Shown: positions 25,233-62,315, counted from the first letter of the stretch. The stretch: DNA of 64,000 nucleotides from Dehalococcoidia bacterium (GCA_034421135.1 DAOUKQ010000110.1:1104-65103), one strand, 5' to 3'. The notes: a model not told the origin generated them from the sequence alone. Numbers and translations: made by a program.

Positions 25233-25946
25233 ATGGTCACAACCACCGATCAGGCAGACGCCAGGGCTACGGACCTGAACACGCCAATGCCGCAGCAGAT
25301 CAGCTTGACCGACGCACTGACGGCGCCAGACGATCCGATCGTGCTGCGCCTGCCCGCTCAGTGGCGATTGACCGATGACGCGTTCTTCGACTTTTTTGAG
25401 CTCAACGATCCATTGTCGTTCGAACGAACGGCGGAAGGAGATCTCGTCATCGTCCCTCCGCCATCAGGCCCTAGCCCTCGGATAGGACCGCGAATCAGCG
25501 CCCAGCTCGTTGAGTGGATCGATGCGGGAGGAGGAGGCGTCGTTGCGGACAGCAGTGGCGGCTACAAGCTGGGCGAGACGCCGCCGACGGGAGAGGAACA
25601 GAAACAACCGACGCGCATTCCCGATGTGTCCTGGATTCCGGACGAGCTGTTCGCGAGTCTCGATCCCGATGAGATCCTTGATGATGTCCCTCGTGTCTGC
25701 CCGCCATTCGTGGTCGAGATCATCTCTGCAAGACAAAGTGTGGGGCCTCAGCAGAAGAAGATGACCGAGTGGTTGAGCTACGGCGTGTTGTTGGGATGGC
25801 TGTTGGATCCGAAGCGGGGCAAAGCCTGGATCTACAGAGCCGGGCAAACCGCACCGGAAGAGTTGGATCGTCCAGCCACGCTTTCGGGCGAGCGCGTGCT
25901 GGAAGGGTTCAATTTGGATTGCTCGGCGGTTTGGGATCTCGAGTAG
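25233..25946 (+). CDS. Uma2-family (DUF820) putative endonuclease
   Basis: 237 aa with …VCPPFVVEIISARQS…WIYRAG…, the Uma2 pattern. It is in tandem with a paralogue. Confidence 0.8.
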   Translation: MVTTTDQADARATDLNTPMPQQISLTDALTAPDDPIVLRLPAQWRLTDDAFFDFFELNDPLSFERTAEGDLVIVPPPSGPSPRIGPRISAQLVEWIDAGGGGVVADSSGGYKLGETPPTGEEQKQPTRIPDVSWIPDELFASLDPDEILDDVPRVCPPFVVEIISARQSVGPQQKKMTEWLSYGVLLGWLLDPKRGKAWIYRAGQTAPEELDRPATLSGERVLEGFNLDCSAVWDLE

Positions 25947-31262: not shown

Positions 31263-32150
31263 ATGGAGCGCATAGGATTTATCGGTCTGGGCATCATGGG
31301 CGTGCCGATGGTGGCGAATCTGATCAAGGCCGGATTCGCTCCGACCGTCTGGAACCGGTCGCAGCCGGGCATCGACGCCTGCGTCAGCCAGGGCGCGACG
31401 GCCGCCGAGTCGCCTCAGGCTGTCGCCCAGGTGTCGGACATCCTGATCACAATCGTGACCGACTCGCCGGACGTGGAATCGGTCCTGGTGGCGCGGGATG
31501 ACGCAGCGATCCACGGCCTGGCCTCCGGGTCCGTGGTGATCGACATGTCGACGATCTCGCCCTCCGTGACCCGAGACCTGGCTGCGCAACTCGCGGAGCG
31601 CGACGTCGCCATGATCGATGCGCCCGTATCGGGCGGCGACACCGGGGCGAAAGCCGGAACCTTGTCGATCATGGTCGGCGGCGACGCTGCGGTACTCGAA
31701 CGCTGCCGTCCCGCGCTGGAGGCGATGGGCTCGACGATCACGCACTGCGGACCGATAGGCGCGGGACAGACGGTCAAGCTCTGCAACCAGGTTGCGATTG
31801 CCGGTGCGCTGCTGGGCGTCTGCGAAGCGCTCTCGCTCGCCGACAAGTCGGGCGTCGACCAGGAGCGGATGCTGGCCGCAATCTCGGCCGGCGCGGCGGG
31901 AAGCTGGCAGCTCTCGAACCTGGGGCCGAAGATCGCGGTCGAGGACTACGCGCCCGGATTCATGGTGCGGCTGATGCAGAAGGATCTCCGGCTCGCGCTT
32001 GAAGCGGGCGGCGAGGTGTTGCAGCCATTGCCCAACACGTCGCTGGTGCACCAGTTGTACTACCAACTCCAAACCTCGGGTCTGGGCGACGAAGGGACGC
32101 AAGCGCTGGCCCGGGTCGTGTCCGGGCTCGGACGCGGACTTGCAGAGTAA
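31263..32150 (+). CDS. NAD(P)-dependent oxidoreductase (3-hydroxyisobutyrate dehydrogenase family)
   Basis: GFIGLGIMGVPM Rossmann motif and the 6-PGDH-like fold. 295 aa. Confidence 0.85.
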   Translation: MERIGFIGLGIMGVPMVANLIKAGFAPTVWNRSQPGIDACVSQGATAAESPQAVAQVSDILITIVTDSPDVESVLVARDDAAIHGLASGSVVIDMSTISPSVTRDLAAQLAERDVAMIDAPVSGGDTGAKAGTLSIMVGGDAAVLERCRPALEAMGSTITHCGPIGAGQTVKLCNQVAIAGALLGVCEALSLADKSGVDQERMLAAISAGAAGSWQLSNLGPKIAVEDYAPGFMVRLMQKDLRLALEAGGEVLQPLPNTSLVHQLYYQLQTSGLGDEGTQALARVVSGLGRGLAE

Positions 32151-32162
32151 GGGCCGGTAGGC

Positions 32163-32603
32163 CTAATGCGAGTGCATCTCGCCGATCGCCTCGTCGGCGT
32201 GGGCCAGGCGTTCGGCGACGTGCTGCAGCATTGACCAGAGTACCGGCACGCTGGCGCCCTCCTGGAAGGTGTTGCGCAGAATCGAGAGGCACTCGGTGTC
32301 TGACGTTGCGACGACGGTCGCCGATCGAGGCCGGCCGAGCAGCAGCGCCATCTCGCCGAAGAAGTCGCCTTCGCCGAACGACGCCAGCAGTTGTTGGTCG
32401 TCAGTGCCGTAGCTCTGGAACACGTCCACCGATCCCTCGCGAATGATGTGCAGGGATGTGCCGAGATCGCCCTCGCGGTCGATGACGTGGCCAGACTTGT
32501 AGTTCTGGATCTGGACCCAGCCGGCGATGTTGTGCAGTTCGTCGCGGTCGACGCGCGAGAACAACGAGGTGTTGGCGAGCATGTCTTCAATCGAAACCGG
32601 CAT
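32163..32603 (-). CDS. cyclic nucleotide-binding domain protein
   Basis: 146 aa with the cNMP-binding pattern …GDFFGEMALLLGRPRSATVVA…. Confidence 0.8.
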   Translation of the reverse strand: MPVSIEDMLANTSLFSRVDRDELHNIAGWVQIQNYKSGHVIDREGDLGTSLHIIREGSVDVFQSYGTDDQQLLASFGEGDFFGEMALLLGRPRSATVVATSDTECLSILRNTFQEGASVPVLWSMLQHVAERLAHADEAIGEMHSH

Positions 32604-32781
32604 GTGAGCCTCCCAGCCCTGTGAGCTGATTCCCGACGGTCAGGCGCACTCCTCGCGCCGCCTCCCCTGCAAGATAGCGGCTAGCACGCCGGTTACGAAG
32701 CGAGCTGCGTCATTCATCCCATGCTGAGCCGGAAACGTGTGGTACAAGTTGCGAAGCGACGAGTTCGGCAACGGAGGACGG

Positions 32782-34080
32782 TCAGATGAGCGTGTTGCGG
32801 AAGTCGGGATGGGCAATCAGCCGCAGCGCATCGGCGCGTTGGCCGAGCGTCCGACCTGAGAGTTCCGCCATGCCGAACTCGGTGACAATCCGGTCGGCCA
32901 GCGTACGCGGCGTGGTCACGACCGCCTCCGGGTCGAGGCTGCGCACAATCCGCGAGATTTTGCCGCGCGCTGCCGTCGAGGGCATGGCCACGACGGAGAC
33001 GCCGCCGTTCAACATCGCGCCGGCGGCAAAGTCCGGCTGACCTCCGGGTCCGGAAATCTGGCGCGATCCGAGCGACTCGGCGTTGATCGTTCCGTCCAGC
33101 GCGACCTGGACCGCCGAGTTGATGCCGACAAAGTTGGTCTGCTGCGCGAGAATCTCGAGCGAGTGCGTGTATCCCGCCGGCGCCATGCAGACGGACTCGT
33201 TGCGGTCCAGCCAGTGGAAGAAATCTGCGCTGCCTGCGGCTTCGGTCGTCACGATCAGCTCAGGCGCGGTCGCCTTGCGAGCGCCGGTCAGCGCGCCGCT
33301 CGCGACCATCCCCATGACGCCGTCCGAGATCAATCCCGAGTGAACGCCCAGGTCGCGACGGTCGCTCAGCATTCCCATGATCGCTTCGGGCACTCCGCCG
33401 ATCCCGAATTGCAGCGTGGCTCCGTCGGTCACCAATTGCGCGACTGCCGACGCGATCTCACGCTCCAGCGGCCCCGGCTCGGCTCGGCGGAGCTCGAGCA
33501 CCGGACTGTCCATCGGCACGAGCCAGTCAAACTCCTCGCGCCGCAATTCGGCGGCACCGAAGGTGTAGGGCAGATTCCGATTGATCTGTCCGATCACCAG
33601 GGGAGTGGTGCGGACCACATCGACGATGCCGCCCACGGACGTCCCTAGCGAGTACAACCCTTCGGGACCAGGCTCCGAGACCTGGACCAGCACCGCGTCG
33701 GCCGGCATCGCGCCGTCGGGCCGGAACAGCCCCGGCACCTGCGCGTACGTCGCGGGAATGTGGTCGAGCGCTCCCGCGGCCTCAACCTTGCGCAACGGTC
33801 CGCTGGTCTGGTAGGTCAAGAAGCGGAACGGCGCGTGCGGATGGTCGAGCGGCGCGACGTGCTCGAAGAGGTTGCCCGTCGCCAGCTCCAGCTTGGACCA
33901 TCCATCCCGGATCGAGTCCAGCGCATCCAACAATCCCACCGGAGTCGCCGACATCGGAGGCACAACCACCCGCGAGCCATCGGGAATCTCCCGCAGAGCT
34001 ACCTCAGCCGTCCCCTCGCGAGTCGGTCGTGGCGCCGATCGAGGCGGCAGATAGTTCTCGAAGCTAGGTAACAGCATCAT
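32782..34080 (-). CDS. acetyl-CoA hydrolase/transferase family protein (4-hydroxybutyrate CoA-transferase-like)
   Basis: 432 aa. …SGPGGQPDF… is the conserved CoA-transferase motif of this family. Confidence 0.85.
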   Translation of the reverse strand: MMLLPSFENYLPPRSAPRPTREGTAEVALREIPDGSRVVVPPMSATPVGLLDALDSIRDGWSKLELATGNLFEHVAPLDHPHAPFRFLTYQTSGPLRKVEAAGALDHIPATYAQVPGLFRPDGAMPADAVLVQVSEPGPEGLYSLGTSVGGIVDVVRTTPLVIGQINRNLPYTFGAAELRREEFDWLVPMDSPVLELRRAEPGPLEREIASAVAQLVTDGATLQFGIGGVPEAIMGMLSDRRDLGVHSGLISDGVMGMVASGALTGARKATAPELIVTTEAAGSADFFHWLDRNESVCMAPAGYTHSLEILAQQTNFVGINSAVQVALDGTINAESLGSRQISGPGGQPDFAAGAMLNGGVSVVAMPSTAARGKISRIVRSLDPEAVVTTPRTLADRIVTEFGMAELSGRTLGQRADALRLIAHPDFRNTLI

Positions 34081-35194
34081 TCGTATCTGCTAACAGCCGG
34101 ATTTCACGTGGATTCCTTAGCTCATGCCTTCTCCCCAAGTGGTACACATCGGCTGTCAGGCTCACTCTCACTTGCTTTTGAAACGCCTCGATCACGGTGT
34201 CATAGTCTGGCTGTTCGAATGTCACTGCGAGTGTCTCCGGCAGATCAGTCCGCTCAGGCACGATATGTGCAAGACCGTCGGCATCTTCAGGCCGACGTTT
34301 GAGGAGCACTACGTCGCCGGTGATCTCCTCGCCGAGCAGTGGCGCCCGGCTACGCAGATACACCCGCGCATCGTTCAAGACATCTGCGGTCTCCTGGCGG
34401 AATCGATACTGGGTGGCTGGCGAATCACTCGGATGGATCGGGGCCCAAGCAAGATCGATCCTCACATCGCTATGCTCAGCCAATTGAGCGATTGCTCCGC
34501 AGAGGTTGGCACTAACGCCGAATGACTCGGATTCGTCGAATGCGCTGAGTCCTCCTTCTTTCATTGCTGTAGAAACTGCAAGTTCGGTCGTCTTTAGCCC
34601 TTGATCCAGTTTCCGCGTAACTCGCCTCGCGAAAGGAAGCATCGGAACCAAGCTTCCTTGGAGTTTTGGAGGAACGGGCGAGTGGACGATTAGCGCAAAG
34701 TCATCGAAGTAACTGGGTAGCGTGGAAACAGTCTCTAGGTAATCGGAGACTCTTTTCGGAACTCGACCGCTGAAGGCAGGACTTGGACGCTCAACCGACC
34801 TGCCAGCGCTCATTAGAAGGTCGTAGGCGCTAGATGCGAGATCCATGGCTCCGTGCAGCGAGATTACGTCTTCAGCGCTGCGCGAGCCTGAAGAGAAACG
34901 CACGGTATCCGATCCTGCTGAGACAAGGCGGTGAAACGCCTCGAGTTCTGAGACTTCCTCTGTCTGGGACAAGACCCGGAGCGTTTCAAACATGTTTCGC
35001 GCATAGCCTGCGCCCGCGTCGCGTTGAGGAACCAAAATCTCCCAATGACGACCCTCGACTTCCTTTCCGAAAATCCAGGCGCGCTGTCTCCAGTTGCCCT
35101 CTTCTGTCCACCCTCGAGATTTGAGGTGCGCAAGGACGTTCGCGGAAGGAATCGAAGCCAATGCTGCTGGGTCCCGGATCTCAACTCTCATCAC
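34064..35194 (-). CDS. hypothetical protein, 376 aa, no recognisable motifs (low-GC island gene B)
   Basis: Start ATG overlaps the stop of the upstream DUF4365-like gene (ATGA at 35191-35194). GC is about 50% against ~67% in the flanks. Confidence 0.6.
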   Translation of the reverse strand: MMRVEIRDPAALASIPSANVLAHLKSRGWTEEGNWRQRAWIFGKEVEGRHWEILVPQRDAGAGYARNMFETLRVLSQTEEVSELEAFHRLVSAGSDTVRFSSGSRSAEDVISLHGAMDLASSAYDLLMSAGRSVERPSPAFSGRVPKRVSDYLETVSTLPSYFDDFALIVHSPVPPKLQGSLVPMLPFARRVTRKLDQGLKTTELAVSTAMKEGGLSAFDESESFGVSANLCGAIAQLAEHSDVRIDLAWAPIHPSDSPATQYRFRQETADVLNDARVYLRSRAPLLGEEITGDVVLLKRRPEDADGLAHIVPERTDLPETLAVTFEQPDYDTVIEAFQKQVRVSLTADVYHLGRRHELRNPREIRLLADTNDAVT

Positions 35195-35673
35195 AGCAGT
35201 CCTTGTTGGGCTTGACTCATCAGGCTGTTTAGCCCCTCCTTGTCAAACACATTAGACAATGGGAGGACGACCGTGCGCGTGAATCGATTCTCAGTGGGTG
35301 GCTCCCCCTGGAGCGGCAGATAGTACGCGCAGTGTCTCAGACAGAGCTCACTCTCGGATTGAGACAGCCAATCGGACTCATGTTGCGGCAAGAGGACCAC
35401 CACAAGGATTGAGGGTGCCAGTTCCTCAGGATCACGCAGATCGTTGAAGTTGTCCCTATCAAGAGGAAAATGGATGCCGTCTTGATGCACCAGATCGCGC
35501 GTTGTCGACTTCGCTTGGAAATTGATCAACGGCGTCTGTCTACCCAACGGTCGAATCGTGCCATCAATGCTCTTGTCATCTGCGTCCCAATGCCCTATCT
35601 GGTAGCCGGCCTCTGCAGCGACGGCACGCACATAGGCAATCGAGAACAGCTCGTTTCGCGTGTAGGTGGGCAT
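35191..35673 (-). CDS. DUF4365-like predicted nuclease (low-GC island gene A)
   Basis: Trimmed to MPTYTRNELFSIAYVRAVAAEAGYQIGHWDADDKSIDGTIRP…LINFQAKST. It fits the DUF4365 N-terminal pattern (…T.N..E..S…GW…D.GIDG.I……Q.KST), which is restriction-endonuclease-like. Confidence 0.6.
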   Translation of the reverse strand: MPTYTRNELFSIAYVRAVAAEAGYQIGHWDADDKSIDGTIRPLGRQTPLINFQAKSTTRDLVHQDGIHFPLDRDNFNDLRDPEELAPSILVVVLLPQHESDWLSQSESELCLRHCAYYLPLQGEPPTENRFTRTVVLPLSNVFDKEGLNSLMSQAQQGLL

Positions 35674-35797
35674 TTCCAAGAACGTCCGATTCCAAGTCGT
35701 CCGTGAGATTGGTAACCCTTTACGCCTGGCAGCCAAGCGCGCCGCCCGACTGGTCGGGCGGCGCGCTTCATTGTCGCCGCTTGCGGCGATGGATGGG

Positions 35798-36913
35798 TTA
35801 TGGCTGCGAGATGTCGAGCACGCCTCGGGCAACTTCGCCGGCTTGCATGGCGGCGAAAGCCTCGTTGATCTGGCCGAGCTCGAAGCGCTTCGAGACCAGG
35901 CCGGACAGGTCGAGCTTGCCCTGGCGGTAGAGGTCGAGCAGCTTCGGCATGTGCTCGCGGAAGCGGGTCGAGCCGTACATGCAGCCGATCGCCTTCTTCT
36001 CTTGCAGGAACTCGGGACCGGGGAAGCTGACCTCGGAGCCGAGCGGCATCATCCCGACGATGCAGGCGGTCCCACCGGCGCGGACCATGTCCCAGGCCTG
36101 TCGCGCGGCGTTGACGTTGCCGATCGCTTCAAATGCGATTTCGACACCGACGCCGCTGGTCAGTTCCTGCACGGCCTCGACCGCGTCGACCTCGGCGGCG
36201 TTGATGCGGTCGGTCGCGCCGAACTGTTCAGCCATGTCGAGTTTGTTGTCGAGGATGTCGACCGCGATGATCCGGCTGGCGCCGGCAATGCGGCAACCCT
36301 GGATCACGTTGAGGCCGACGCCGCCGCAGCCAATCACGGCGACGATCGAGCCGCCCGGCACCTTGGCCGTGTAGAGCGCGGCGCCGACGCCGGTCATCAC
36401 GCCGCAGCCGACCAGCGCGGCCTCAGCCGGGGGAATGTCCTCGGGAATCTTGAGTACGCCCGACTGGGTGGTGAGCATGTACTCGCCGAACGATCCGACC
36501 GAAGCCATCTGCACGACCGGACGGCCGTCCCAGTTGAGGCGGTCACGCGCGAGCGCGGCGTCGTTCGGAGCGGGGCACAGGTTCGGCTCGCCGCGCAGGC
36601 ACCAGTAGCAGTCGCCGCAGAAGGGGCGGAAGGACATGATCACGTTGTCGCCGGGCTGGACGTAGGTGACGTCGTCGCCGACCGTCTCGACCACGCCGGC
36701 CGCCTCGTGTCCGAGGACTGCCGGCAGACCGCCGAAGGCCGCCGCCCACTTGCCGTCGACGAAGTGGAGGTCGCTGTGGCAGACGCCCGAGGTCGTCGTG
36801 CGGACCAGCACCTCGCCCGGTTGCGGGTCGCGGACGTTGATGTCGTGCACCTCAAGTACGGAACGGTCGCCGTCCTTGTCCTGATTGGCAGGATCGAAAA
36901 TGGCAGCCTTCAT
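35798..36913 (-). CDS. zinc-dependent alcohol dehydrogenase (MDR family)
   Basis: Trimmed to MKAAIF…. GVCHSDLH, GHEAAGVV and GCGGVG are the MDR motifs. Confidence 0.85.
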   Translation of the reverse strand: MKAAIFDPANQDKDGDRSVLEVHDINVRDPQPGEVLVRTTTSGVCHSDLHFVDGKWAAAFGGLPAVLGHEAAGVVETVGDDVTYVQPGDNVIMSFRPFCGDCYWCLRGEPNLCPAPNDAALARDRLNWDGRPVVQMASVGSFGEYMLTTQSGVLKIPEDIPPAEAALVGCGVMTGVGAALYTAKVPGGSIVAVIGCGGVGLNVIQGCRIAGASRIIAVDILDNKLDMAEQFGATDRINAAEVDAVEAVQELTSGVGVEIAFEAIGNVNAARQAWDMVRAGGTACIVGMMPLGSEVSFPGPEFLQEKKAIGCMYGSTRFREHMPKLLDLYRQGKLDLSGLVSKRFELGQINEAFAAMQAGEVARGVLDISQP

Positions 36914-37648
36914 GTTGGGTCCTTCCCAGGGATTGCATTCCAAACGCCGCGCGCTCCCGCGCAGCCATGGATCATGTTAGGCGAGCGCAGATAAGCGAAC
37001 AACATGCCATGCGCATCGATCCGCCTGTTCCCGAGACTTCCCGCTGGATGCCGCTCCCAGAACCGACATCCAGCGATTCACTCGCTGGTCTCCCAAAGAC
37101 CGGTGACCGGCGGTTGGACCGGCCTCAGGTCTGCGCAGGCGGTCGCGAGATGTCCACCGGTTTGGTTAACTCGCTGTTATTCGTGTGGCGTTTGGCTAAG
37201 AGACTCGATACCCTTAGACGCACAACTGAATATTCGGGCCGAATCTCCGTGAAGTGTGATCACCGACCGGAGAGCGGGGGACCCACCAACTTGGGGTGAA
37301 TGCGATTCACCCGCTCGTCGCCTAACAGGTGAGCATCGGAATCGCACGGCGCGCTCCCTTGCGCCGAACCCGTCAGCTAACCCCGTAGGCGACCGAGGGA
37401 GACGGCGCAGCGGTTCACGAACCGCTGCGCAGGCAAGAACCCGTGCTTTGCGCATGGCTCCATCGGTCCGCCATGCTGTTCCACCACCGGAGCGGCAATC
37501 GGCCACCGACATGAGAGTCACGCCGGGAGCGACCGCCCGGCGCACTCAGGGGCACGGGTTTCTCGCTCACCCGTCCCCGCCTCCTGGCCGACCCCCGGAC
37601 ATTGCGTCCGGGGGTTCGGTTTATCTGCGCGCTCCACGCAGCGCCCGC

Positions 37649-62238: not shown

Positions 62239-62315
<77 letters not shown>

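What the first reader, a model, noticed from the sequence alone, without database searches (positions are those of the whole stretch)
34064..35673. Low-GC two-gene insert: a DUF4365-like predicted nuclease translationally coupled to a 376-aa protein with no recognisable motifs (candidate undescribed defence/abortive-infection-type module)
GC falls to about 48-57% across 34.06-35.70 kb, against ~67% in the flanking acetyl-CoA hydrolase/transferase (32782..34080) and Zn-ADH (35798..36913) genes. This looks like a horizontally acquired insertion between two housekeeping-type catabolic genes on the same strand. Gene A (35191..35673) has the DUF4365-style N-terminus PTYTRNELFSIAYVRAVAAEAGYQIGHWDADDKSIDGTIRP…LINFQAKST, with an Asp…(D/S)IDG…QxK arrangement reminiscent of PD-(D/E)xK nucleases. 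The usual Glu after IDG.I is Arg here, so the nuclease could be inactive or use alternative residues. Gene B (34064..35194) starts with an ATG that overlaps the gene A stop (ATGA at 35191-35194), implying obligate co-expression. It is a 376-aa soluble protein with no motif I can assign. A small predicted nuclease plus an unknown effector or sensor in a low-GC islet is the typical architecture of two-gene anti-phage or abortive-infection systems. I cannot match DUF4365-plus-partner to any named defence system from memory.
Basis: partly seen in the sequence, partly recalled or inferred. Interest (0 to 1): 0.8.

Follow-up and report, generated by a model that had tools for sequence, protein, structure and literature searches.

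The report
Catalogued but untested nuclease-plus-partner defence cassette
The two low-GC genes are a real, functional, inserted cassette of the candidate anti-phage system PDC-M02 (a small DUF4365 nuclease plus a 375-aa partner of unknown family), which is already listed in a defence database but has never been tested and has no known mechanism.

Summary
Two overlapping minus-strand genes, A (35191..35673, 160 aa) and B (34064..35194, 375/376 aa), have GC3 of 0.63 and 0.56 against 0.81-0.88 in their neighbours.

A is a DUF4365 PD-(D/E)xK nuclease with an intact E8/D37/Q53-x-K55 site and an Hjc-like predicted fold. B has no Pfam, NCBIfam, PHROG or PDB-sequence match.

The pair is not undescribed. 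Both proteins match PADLOC-DB candidate system PDC-M02 over their full length (E 4e-50 and 3e-81). That candidate was predicted by "guilt-by-embedding" in type I R-M, BREX and DISARM operons, and I found no report of a test.

New here:
- A lies directly upstream of B in 83 of 86 loci.
- 14 of 80 loci sit inside hsdM...hsdR operons.
- Both genes are under purifying selection.
- Related Dehalococcoidia carry at least five very divergent alleles in exactly this ADH/acetyl-CoA-hydrolase slot, and one relative has the empty site.
- B is predicted to have three domains: HicA/dsRBD-like, helical, and an acidic OB-fold.

Most likely reading: B is a sensor or regulator controlling a DREN-type collateral nuclease. 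This mechanism is inferred, not shown.

Verdict: a new member of a known (candidate) kind, of moderate interest.

The parts
35191..35673 (-). Gene A: standalone 160-aa DUF4365 (DREN-type) PD-(D/E)xK nuclease, PADLOC PDC-M02A. Catalytic E8, D37, Q53, K55.
34064..35194 (-). Gene B: 375/376-aa partner, PADLOC PDC-M02B, with no Pfam family. Predicted three-part architecture: N-terminal alpha-beta-beta-beta-alpha domain (about residues 16-77, HicA/dsRBD-like), central helical region carrying the family signature G225-V-S-A-N-L-C231, and a C-terminal acidic OB-fold (about residues 285-367).
35191..35194 (-). A-stop/B-start overlap (GTGA; alternative ATG at 35191 gives TGATG), implying translational coupling.
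   Evidence: Sequence. The same 4- or 7-nt overlap occurs in 65 of 83 related loci.
35674..35734 (-). 61-nt cassette leader between the native ADH terminator hairpin and the A start codon. It is the presumed location of the cassette's own promoter/RBS, but none was recognised.
   Evidence: Alignment of the empty site against occupied sites. No sigma-70-like site on this strand. It is only about 53-55% identical to the closest allele, L002.
35735..35768 (-). Perfect 16-bp GC-rich hairpin just after the ADH stop. It is the native ADH terminator-like element and marks the left boundary of the insertion. It is not part of the cassette.
   Evidence: Inverted repeat I1. It is present in the empty-site contig L093 and in L091, with changes on both arms that keep the stem.
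34064..34080 (-). Right boundary. The 3' end of B overlaps the ATG(ATG) start of the acetyl-CoA hydrolase/transferase gene, so the cassette abuts the downstream catabolic gene with no spacer.
   Evidence: DNA identity to relatives recovers from about 50% to 77-88% just downstream of here, from about 34047.

Best explanation
The locus is a chromosomal copy of the PADLOC candidate defence system PDC-M02. It was inserted between the terminator hairpin of a Zn-alcohol-dehydrogenase gene and the start codon of an acetyl-CoA hydrolase/transferase gene in a Dehalococcoidia (Chloroflexota) genome.

Gene A encodes a small DUF4365/DREN-type PD-(D/E)xK nuclease, which I take to be the effector. Gene B is translated in a fixed ratio with A through the overlapping stop/start. 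It encodes a three-domain protein with no enzymatic motif, which I take to be the sensor or regulator.

Proposed mechanism (inferred by analogy, not shown): A on its own is a monomer with little activity and is held by B. When B detects an infection cue, A is released or assembled into an active oligomer. That oligomer degrades DNA (possibly also RNA) non-specifically, stopping phage or plasmid replication at the cost of dormancy or death of the cell. The cue may be a phage protein bound by the variable, acidic OB-like domain. In the R-M-embedded relatives it may be a change in the restriction complex.

Shown: family membership, obligate pairing, an intact active site, purifying selection, insertion with presence/absence polymorphism, allelic diversification, and association with type I R-M.

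Inferred: the defence function itself, A-B binding, the trigger, and oligomerisation-dependent activation.
For: Membership: both PDC-M02 HMMs match end to end.

Effector:
- DUF4365 match with E8, D37, Q53 and K55 conserved.
- Hjc-like and I-Ssp6803I-like predicted fold.
- DUF4365 is the DREN nuclease of SPARDA. There it is monomeric and inactive alone, and becomes a collateral nuclease on tetramerisation; the tetramer resembles I-Ssp6803I (PMC12205087; PMC10810196).

Pairing:
- A lies directly upstream of B in 83 of 86 loci, mostly with a 4- or 7-nt overlap.
- A and B divergence are correlated (Mantel r 0.74, 0 of 999 permutations).

Functionality: dN/dS is 0.04 (A) and 0.06 (B).

Defence context:
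- HsdR is the immediate downstream neighbour in 14 of 79 loci, and HsdS or a methylase is immediately upstream in about 10 of 78.
- 14 of 80 loci are embedded in same-strand hsdM...hsdR operons.
- Islands with GmrSD, integrase and IS elements.
- Next to a RelE/ParE toxin-antitoxin pair, with a Fic-family gene about 4 kb upstream, on a conjugative plasmid.

Mobility and arms-race signature:
- An empty site exists in L093.
- At least five alleles occupy the same slot. Between the window and L005, flank proteins are 86-95% identical but A and B only 42% and 48%. In L091 A is 61% and B 37% identical.
- The cassette has lower GC than its flanks in 78 of 81 loci.

Sensor-like features of B: no catalytic family match, the C-terminal OB domain has the highest mean sequence entropy of the four regions I defined, and one relative carries a C-terminal TPR array.
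Against: No experiment on PDC-M02 was found in the searchable literature. It remains one of 145 untested candidates.

In this window the cassette is not in a defence island. Its neighbours are catabolic genes, and most of the 80 related loci are also 'solo'.

A-B physical interaction and oligomerisation were not modelled. No multimer prediction was available.

The SPARDA analogy rests on a shared Pfam domain only. The A-family profile did not retrieve any SPARDA chain from the PDB at E<=1.

The OB-like domain is acidic (pI 4.8, family median net charge -3.5) and poor in aromatic residues. A simple 'B senses ssDNA' model is therefore not favoured, and the ligand is unknown.

Several loci have a truncated or undetected A next to an intact B. 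That pattern also fits a toxin-antitoxin reading.
Confidence: 0.5

Rival explanations
1. Toxin-antitoxin or addiction module. A is a nuclease toxin and B a large proteic antitoxin that neutralises it stoichiometrically. The cassette persists through post-segregational or anti-deletion selfishness rather than by sensing phage. This is not mutually exclusive with abortive infection.
For: Tight two-gene operon with overlapping stop/start. Scattered 'solo' chromosomal and plasmid locations, including next to a RelE/ParE module on a conjugative plasmid. Five loci have a truncated A and two have no detectable A, while B is intact in all seven: L017, L020, L021, L034, L083, L047 and L089. That is the decay order expected if A is toxic. 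DUF4365 domains can be toxic when expressed (EAT16).
Against: B is 375 aa with three domains and has no HTH, RHH or other usual antitoxin DNA-binding module. Both proteins are under equally strong purifying selection. 14 of 80 loci are embedded inside type I R-M operons, which is the signature used to find defence genes. The 'A lost, B kept' count is biased, because loci were collected with B as the query, and many of the assemblies may carry frameshift errors.
Confidence: 0.2
2. Restriction-like, direct-targeting system with no abortive component. B recognises a feature of foreign DNA, such as a modified base or a structure, and recruits A to cut it, in the manner of a two-subunit type IV/type II-like endonuclease.
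For: A has a classic restriction-enzyme/Hjc fold and motif. B contains two folds that often bind nucleic acids, dsRBD-like and OB. The system is frequently co-located with R-M genes. No NTPase or second-messenger enzyme is present.
Confidence: 0.15
3. Selfish homing-endonuclease-like cassette. A is a homing nuclease (I-Ssp6803I-like) that promotes the spread of its own two-gene cassette into intergenic sites, with B as a maturase or helper.
Against: There is no intron or intein context and no flanking repeats or target duplication. Insertion sites differ widely among 80 loci. Alleles at the same site are 40-50% identical rather than near-identical, as recent homing would give. B is always retained under purifying selection.
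Confidence: 0.05
4. Housekeeping DNA repair or recombination pair: an Hjc-type junction resolvase with an OB-fold accessory protein.
Against: It is absent from a close relative (empty site). Allelic divergence is extreme while flanks are 86-95% identical. GC3 is foreign. There are two copies on one contig (L053/L055) and two copies 5 kb apart in L054. It is embedded in R-M operons and carried on plasmids.
Confidence: 0.03

Closest known systems
PDC-M02 (PADLOC-DB v2 phage defence candidate; cassette CAS_00021, FAM_01850>>FAM_00842; Payne et al., bioRxiv 10.1101/2024.01.29.577857)
   Same: Both proteins match the M02A and M02B HMMs over their full length (E 4e-50 and 3e-81). The gene order A>>B, the shared strand and the overlap are the same. 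Relatives of this copy are embedded in type I R-M operons, which is how the candidate was discovered.
   Different: Nothing structural differs: this is a member. This copy is 'solo', lying between catabolic genes in a Dehalococcoidia genome. The family itself has no experimental validation, no name and no described mechanism. The domain analysis of B, the co-divergence, the selection analysis and the empty-site/allele analysis are additions made here.
SPARDA (short prokaryotic Argonaute + DREN-APAZ)
   Same: The effector domain is the same Pfam family (DUF4365 = DREN), a PD-(D/E)xK nuclease with a Q-x-K motif. DREN is monomeric and inactive alone and is activated by sensor-driven tetramerisation into an I-Ssp6803I-like assembly. 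I-Ssp6803I is also a top structural match of A.
PrrC/RloC-type systems embedded in type I R-M operons
   Same: About 18% of related loci sit between hsdM/hsdS and hsdR on the same strand. This is the classic position of PrrC, which is held inactive by the R-M complex and released when a phage anti-restriction protein attacks it (as described in Payne et al.).
   Different: There is no ABC-ATPase and no anticodon-nuclease domain. This is a two-protein system. In this window and in most loci no R-M genes are adjacent, so any dependence on R-M cannot be general.
Single-protein DUF4365 toxins and defences: Divona (Vibrio integron cassette) and the eCIS toxin EAT16
   Same: Both contain a DUF4365 domain. 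Divona is listed among the anti-phage systems of Vibrio integron cassettes. [quoted passage not shown]
   Different: Those are single polypeptides with other fused domains: an Mrr-like nuclease plus crr6 in Divona, and an eCIS cargo region in EAT16. They have no B-like partner.
Archaeal Holliday junction resolvase Hjc
   Different: Sequence identity is only 9-16%. Hjc is a conserved housekeeping gene, whereas this gene is an accessory, horizontally mobile cassette component that is always paired with B.

Membership tests
PDC-M02 (PADLOC candidate system) | Protein matching a PDC-M02A HMM | tested here: met
   Best E 4.3e-50, residues 5-158 on profile positions 7-164 of 167. All 25 PADLOC hits of A are M02A models.
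PDC-M02 (PADLOC candidate system) | Protein matching a PDC-M02B HMM | tested here: met
   Best E 3.4e-81, residues 2-370 on profile positions 1-376 of 380.
PDC-M02 (PADLOC candidate system) | The two genes adjacent on one strand in the order A>>B | tested here: met
   4-nt (or 1-nt) overlap, minus strand. Same arrangement in 83 of 86 related loci.
PDC-M02 (PADLOC candidate system) | Anti-phage activity | not testable with these tools
   The source paper lists PDCs as untested. No paper mentions PDC-M02 in its main text.
DUF4365 / DREN PD-(D/E)xK nucleases | Pfam PF14280 match above the gathering threshold | tested here: met
   61.6 bits against a cut-off of 24.3, E 1.1e-16, profile positions 2-138 of 139.
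DUF4365 / DREN PD-(D/E)xK nucleases | Catalytic motif (E ... D ... Q-x-K; Pfam motif DxGxD...QxK) | tested here: met
   E8, D32, D37, Q53 and K55 are present. D37, Q53 and K55 are invariant in 17 homologs. They align to EcoRV E45/D74/D90/K92 at a non-significant E of 0.36.
DUF4365 / DREN PD-(D/E)xK nucleases | Nuclease activity | not testable with these tools
   Requires biochemistry.
SPARDA (short pAgo system) | Partner is a short Argonaute (MID-PIWI) | tested here: not met
SPARDA (short pAgo system) | Nuclease fused to an APAZ domain | tested here: not met
   A is 160 aa and consists of the DUF4365 domain only.
Type I R-M-embedded guard systems (PrrC-like) | Located between hsdM/hsdS and hsdR in one operon | tested here: not met
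   In this window the flanks are ADH and acetyl-CoA hydrolase. The feature is met in 14 of 80 related loci.
Type II toxin-antitoxin modules | Small labile antitoxin with a DNA-binding domain that autoregulates the operon | tested here: not met
   B is 375 aa with three domains and no HTH, RHH or AbrB match.
Type II toxin-antitoxin modules | Toxin toxicity neutralised by the partner | not testable with these tools
   Requires expression experiments.
HicA toxins (dsRBD-like RNases) | dsRBD-like alpha-beta-beta-beta-alpha fold | tested here: inconclusive
HicA toxins (dsRBD-like RNases) | Conserved G-S-H catalytic histidine in the beta1-beta2 loop | tested here: not met
   No conserved histidine appears in the N-terminal domain of the B family. 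There is no HicA_toxin Pfam hit.
SSB/RPA-type OB-fold ssDNA binders | OB fold (beta1-beta2-beta3-alpha-beta4-beta5 barrel) | tested here: met
SSB/RPA-type OB-fold ssDNA binders | Basic, aromatic nucleic-acid-binding surface | tested here: not met
   The OB region has pI 4.8, 18 D+E against 11 K+R, and 4 aromatic residues. The family median net charge is -3.5.

The most novel reading that the evidence does not exclude
PDC-M02 is a genuine, mechanistically new anti-phage or anti-plasmid system. In it, a previously undescribed three-domain protein family (HicA-like, helical with a GVSANLC motif, and an acidic OB-fold; more than 4000 50%-identity clusters and no Pfam model) acts as the infection sensor. 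It switches on a free-standing DREN-type collateral nuclease, without Argonaute, an NTPase or a second messenger. In Dehalococcoidia relatives (many of the related MAGs appear, from my own recollection, to be sponge-derived) the system is kept at one chromosomal slot as a set of ancient, highly divergent alleles plus an empty allele. That pattern would fit balancing or diversifying selection by phages.
Probability: 0.4. Interest if true: 0.6.

Novelty: new member of a known kind. Interest (0 to 1): 0.42.

Why it matters
PDC-M02 is one of the more abundant untested candidates in PADLOC: its cassette is listed with a count of 894, which I read as RefSeq homologs. Here the B family reaches 4184 clusters at 50% identity. 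Even so, nothing is known about how the system works.

This analysis gives it a concrete, testable anatomy:
- an intact minimal DREN/Hjc-like nuclease as the effector;
- a partner with no enzymatic signature but a defined three-domain model and a sharp signature motif;
- strict co-inheritance and strong purifying selection.

If the pair is validated, it would show that the DREN collateral nuclease used by short Argonautes can be driven by a completely different and much smaller sensor. That would interest both defence biology and nuclease-based diagnostics.

The locus also offers a clean natural experiment. The same slot carries five or more alleles plus an empty site in closely related uncultivated Dehalococcoidia. 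This can be used to study how defence alleles turn over in uncultivated Dehalococcoidia, many of whose related MAGs appear to come from sponge microbiomes.

Tried and rejected
- Sequence-level identification of B failed everywhere. Pfam, NCBIfam and PHROGs on the window protein gave nothing. Pfam on 125 divergent relatives gave only single spurious hits. PDB sequence profiles gave only a de novo helical bundle.
- 'B is an Argonaute/APAZ analogue' was rejected, because there were no such structural hits.
- 'B senses ssDNA through its OB fold' was downgraded, because the domain is acidic and poor in aromatics.
- Recent site-specific integration was rejected: there are no flanking direct repeats, no adjacent tRNA and no integrase.
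- Phage carriage looks rare: only 2 distant hits in IMG/VR with this pattern-limited scan.
- I found no recognisable sigma-70 promoter or intrinsic terminator inside the cassette.
- A literature search for 'PDC-M02' gave 0 main-text hits. 'PDC-M' hits concern other candidates.
- I tried to locate the TIR-, PycTIR- and PycC-like PADLOC hits elsewhere in the window by testing ten low-GC3 ORFs. Only a weak PDC-S03 hit turned up.
- I looked for mosaicism in B between alleles. Only the first ~30 residues are more conserved than the rest, so there is no clear recombination breakpoint.
Full report
OBSERVATION

The two ORFs exist as described on the minus strand.
- A is 35191..35673 (160 aa, ATG start).
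- B is 34064..35194 (376 aa from GTG). The ATG one codon later, at 35191, gives the 375-aa form held in public databases.
- The junction reads ...CTG CTG TGA with GTG ATG AGA in the B frame. The overlap is therefore GTGA (4 nt) or TGATG (1 nt), not ATGA.
- At its other end, B's last 17 nt overlap the ATGATG start of the acetyl-CoA hydrolase/transferase ORF.

The compositional anomaly is real.
- GC in 300-nt windows is 0.53-0.59 across the pair and 0.65-0.70 on both sides.
- GC3 is 0.63 (A) and 0.56 (B), against 0.81-0.88 for six neighbours.
- B has the lowest GC3 of 70 ORFs called in the window.

Pfam confirms DUF4365 in A (61.6 bits against a cut-off of 24.3). It also confirms the AcetylCoA_hyd_C and ADH_N/ADH_zinc_N flanks.

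WHAT IT IS

PADLOC-DB v2 identifies both proteins, end to end, as components of candidate system PDC-M02: A as M02A (E 4.3e-50) and B as M02B (E 3.4e-81). PDCs are 145 'phage defence candidates' derived by Payne et al. (bioRxiv 10.1101/2024.01.29.577857). They were found among gene cassettes embedded in BREX, DISARM and type I R-M operons and are explicitly untested.

PDC-M02 corresponds to their cassette CAS_00021 (FAM_01850>>FAM_00842), which is listed with a count of 894. I read that as RefSeq homologs of the cassette. No paper in the searchable library mentions PDC-M02 in its text. Papers that mention DUF4365 deal almost entirely with short Argonaute systems, an eCIS toxin and an integron cassette. 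RefSeq annotates a plasmid-borne homologous pair simply as 'DUF4365 domain-containing protein' plus 'hypothetical protein'.

The pair is therefore catalogued, but not named, validated or mechanistically described.

GENE A

Seventeen homologs share invariant D37, Q53 and K55 and nearly invariant E8 and D32. A profile of them aligns to EcoRV so that E8/D37/Q53/K55 fall on E45/D74/D90/K92, the EcoRV catalytic residues. The E-value of 0.36 is not significant, so the value lies in the register, not the score.

From the literature:
- DUF4365 is the DREN nuclease of SPARDA, which degrades DNA non-specifically after target recognition (PMC10810196).
- DREN is monomeric and inactive on its own. It becomes active when filament formation forces a D2 tetramer that resembles I-Ssp6803I (PMC12205087).

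GENE B

No Pfam, NCBIfam or PHROG family matches the window protein. None recurs among 125 relatives at 23-40% identity. PDB sequence profiles give nothing meaningful.

The family is large and uniform. It has 4184 clusters (50% identity) at E<=1e-3 and 955 at 1e-30, almost all 375-390 aa long. Rare exceptions are a C-terminal TPR fusion (P0293) and two partial DUF4365-B fusions that are probably gene-calling artefacts.

The model is confident (pLDDT 85, pTM 0.78) but has no whole-fold match in the PDB.

From the secondary-structure order I assign the OB barrel to residues ~285-367 (beta1-beta2-beta3-alpha-beta4-beta5). I assign the HicA-like alpha-beta-beta-beta-alpha unit to residues ~16-77. 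The tools do not report aligned ranges, so this mapping is an inference.

The HicA catalytic histidine is absent. Family-wide conserved residues are W28, P55, D95, R189 and the signature G225-V-S-A-N-L-C231 in the central helical region. The OB region has the highest mean sequence entropy of the four regions I defined. It is also acidic (pI 4.8, family median net charge -3.5) with few aromatics. This argues against a classical ssDNA-binding role and fits a protein-binding or other ligand-binding role.

CO-OCCURRENCE AND CONTEXT

A pattern scan of 185,579 species genomes found 287 loci. The best 80 are mostly Dehalococcoidia, Caldilineaceae and other Chloroflexota MAGs. They also include Poribacteria, Alphaproteobacteria, Imhoffiella and Azospirillum. 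Plasmid copies occur in Gluconobacter, Methylobacterium, Tistrella and others.

- In 83 of 86 B genes a DUF4365 ORF lies directly upstream on the same strand, with a 4- or 7-nt overlap in 65 cases.
- Pairwise divergence of A and B is correlated (Mantel r 0.74, 0 of 999 permutations).
- The gene immediately downstream is a type I HsdR in 14 of 79 loci. The gene immediately upstream is HsdS (6), another methylase (4) or something unrelated.
- 14 of 80 loci are embedded in same-strand hsdM...hsdR operons. With one or two hsdR genes per genome, chance adjacency would be far below one locus. That expectation is an order-of-magnitude estimate of mine, not a computed statistic.
- One set of loci lies in an island with GmrSD, an integrase and many IS elements.
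- Only two distant copies were found in IMG/VR viral contigs.
- In this window the neighbours are catabolic genes.

HISTORY AT THIS LOCUS

The closest genome, L005 = L011 (OZ242948.1, a Dehalococcoidia MAG), has the same ADH-A-B-acetyl-CoA hydrolase-cNMP arrangement. Its flank proteins are 86-95% identical to the window's, but A is only 42% and B 48% identical. The metagenome contig L002 has flanks at 82-93% identity with A at 84% and B at 73%. L091 has flanks at 94% and 84% with A at 61% and B at 37%. L070 and L075 carry yet another allele (B 39%).

DNA identity collapses from 0.9 to about 0.5 just after the ADH stop and recovers around the acetyl-CoA hydrolase start.

Contig L093 is an empty site. 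ADH (88% identical) and acetyl-CoA hydrolase (82%) are 91 nt apart with no cassette. The alignment of empty and occupied sites shows that the perfect 16-bp hairpin at 35735-35768 is the native post-ADH terminator-like element. It is kept in all versions, with changes on both arms. The cassette occupies everything from the hairpin to the acetyl-CoA hydrolase start codon.

Between the window and L002, dN/dS is 0.04 (A) and 0.06 (B), so both genes are functional. Their dS (2.4-3.0) exceeds that of the flanks (0.5-1.0). This comparison is partly confounded by the much lower GC3 of the cassette.

A more robust argument is that the window-L002 and window-L005 flank divergences are similar, while cassette dN differs three- to six-fold. 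The alleles therefore cannot all have diverged in place at one rate. Allele replacement by recombination through the conserved flanks, or long-lived polymorphism, is required. The family as a whole has lower GC than its flanks in 78 of 81 loci.

MECHANISM (INFERENCE)

The anatomy is an effector nuclease of a type known to be inert as a monomer, plus a co-translated partner with no enzymatic motif. It carries the evolutionary signature of a mobile, diversifying accessory module and a strong association with R-M.

The best-supported model is a sensor/regulator (B) that controls a collateral DREN-type nuclease (A), giving abortive or dormancy-type defence. I put about 0.95 on membership of PDC-M02 and about 0.6 on a defence function. 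I put about 0.3 on the specific 'B-triggered oligomerisation of A' step.

The rivals are a toxin-antitoxin or addiction module, a direct restriction-like nuclease with B as the recognition subunit, a homing-type selfish cassette, and a housekeeping resolvase pair. They are listed above with evidence for and against each. The last two are disfavoured by the data.

VERDICT

The feature is real and correctly delimited. This is a new member of a known, still uncharacterised candidate family. Interest is moderate: a specialist would not be surprised by the locus. The family is nevertheless abundant and untested, and it now has a concrete structural and evolutionary description that makes experiments straightforward.

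Noticed in passing
window 37227-37406 (+): c-di-AMP riboswitch (Rfam RF00379, 83 bits, E 7e-18) in the ~700-nt gap between ADH and the convergent enoyl-CoA hydratase gene. No plausible plus-strand gene lies downstream before the ECH gene, so it looks orphaned or regulates something unrecognised.
   Followed up: partly
window 31263-36913 compared with L005 and L002: The six-gene block NAD-binding DH / cNMP-binding / acetyl-CoA hydrolase / B / A / ADH appears inverted relative to the ECH-SRAP-DinB genes, compared with the two related genomes. The orphan riboswitch sits at one inversion end.
   Followed up: no
window, unlocated ORFs (one at 25233-25943 +): Scanning 68 window ORFs against PADLOC gave hits to TIR effector/PycTIR (E 2e-11), Pycsar cyclase PycC (E 1e-8), an oxidoreductase model and PDC-S03. 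Only the weak PDC-S03 hit (E 1e-7) was located, at 25233-25943. Pfam also shows two Uma2 and two PIN proteins in the window.
   Followed up: partly
L054 (8001-9143 and 12929-14068); L053 and L055 (same contig CBDANP010000006.1): Some genomes carry two PDC-M02 pairs: two copies 5 kb apart in L054, and two copies about 220 kb apart on one contig.
   Followed up: no
L017, L020, L021, L034, L083 (truncated A); L047, L089 (no A detected): B is intact while the upstream DUF4365 ORF is reduced to a 50-110-aa fragment or is not detected. This could be real toxin-first decay or frameshift errors in the assemblies.
   Followed up: no
P0293 (752 aa): One B-family representative carries a ~380-aa C-terminal TPR/MalT-like repeat array. 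Such a module is, from my own recollection, typical of STAND/Avs-type sensors.
   Followed up: partly
window 35735-35768 and the homologous positions in L091 and L093: The post-ADH hairpin is conserved across relatives, with substitutions on both arms that keep the stem. It has no U-tract, so the consensus terminator scan did not call it.
   Followed up: partly
B residues 1-30 (window 35102-35191): Between otherwise very divergent alleles at this slot, the first ~30 residues of B are much more conserved than the rest (window against L091: 0.67 against 0.25-0.44). This could be an A-contact segment or a constraint from the coupled translation start.
   Followed up: partly
neighbours of the pair in L015 and other loci (output): Proteins of ~330-470 aa, with a C-terminal segment that looks like a nucleoside 2-deoxyribosyltransferase domain (conserved '...AFVAMWF...RIDxKxxxxKIDDEIIAEIRRSRFLVADFT...GGVYYEAGFAHGLG...LHFD' motif), recur among the immediate neighbours listed. 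Pfam Nuc_deoxyrib_tr matched 2 downstream neighbours, but I did not check that these are the same proteins. DUF2806 (2), Fic (2) and nucleotidyltransferase (3) genes also recur. These may be further embedded defence candidates.
   Followed up: no
window 62239-62315 (+): tRNA-Pro (CGG), the only tRNA in the window. It is 26 kb from the cassette and not associated with it.
   Followed up: yes
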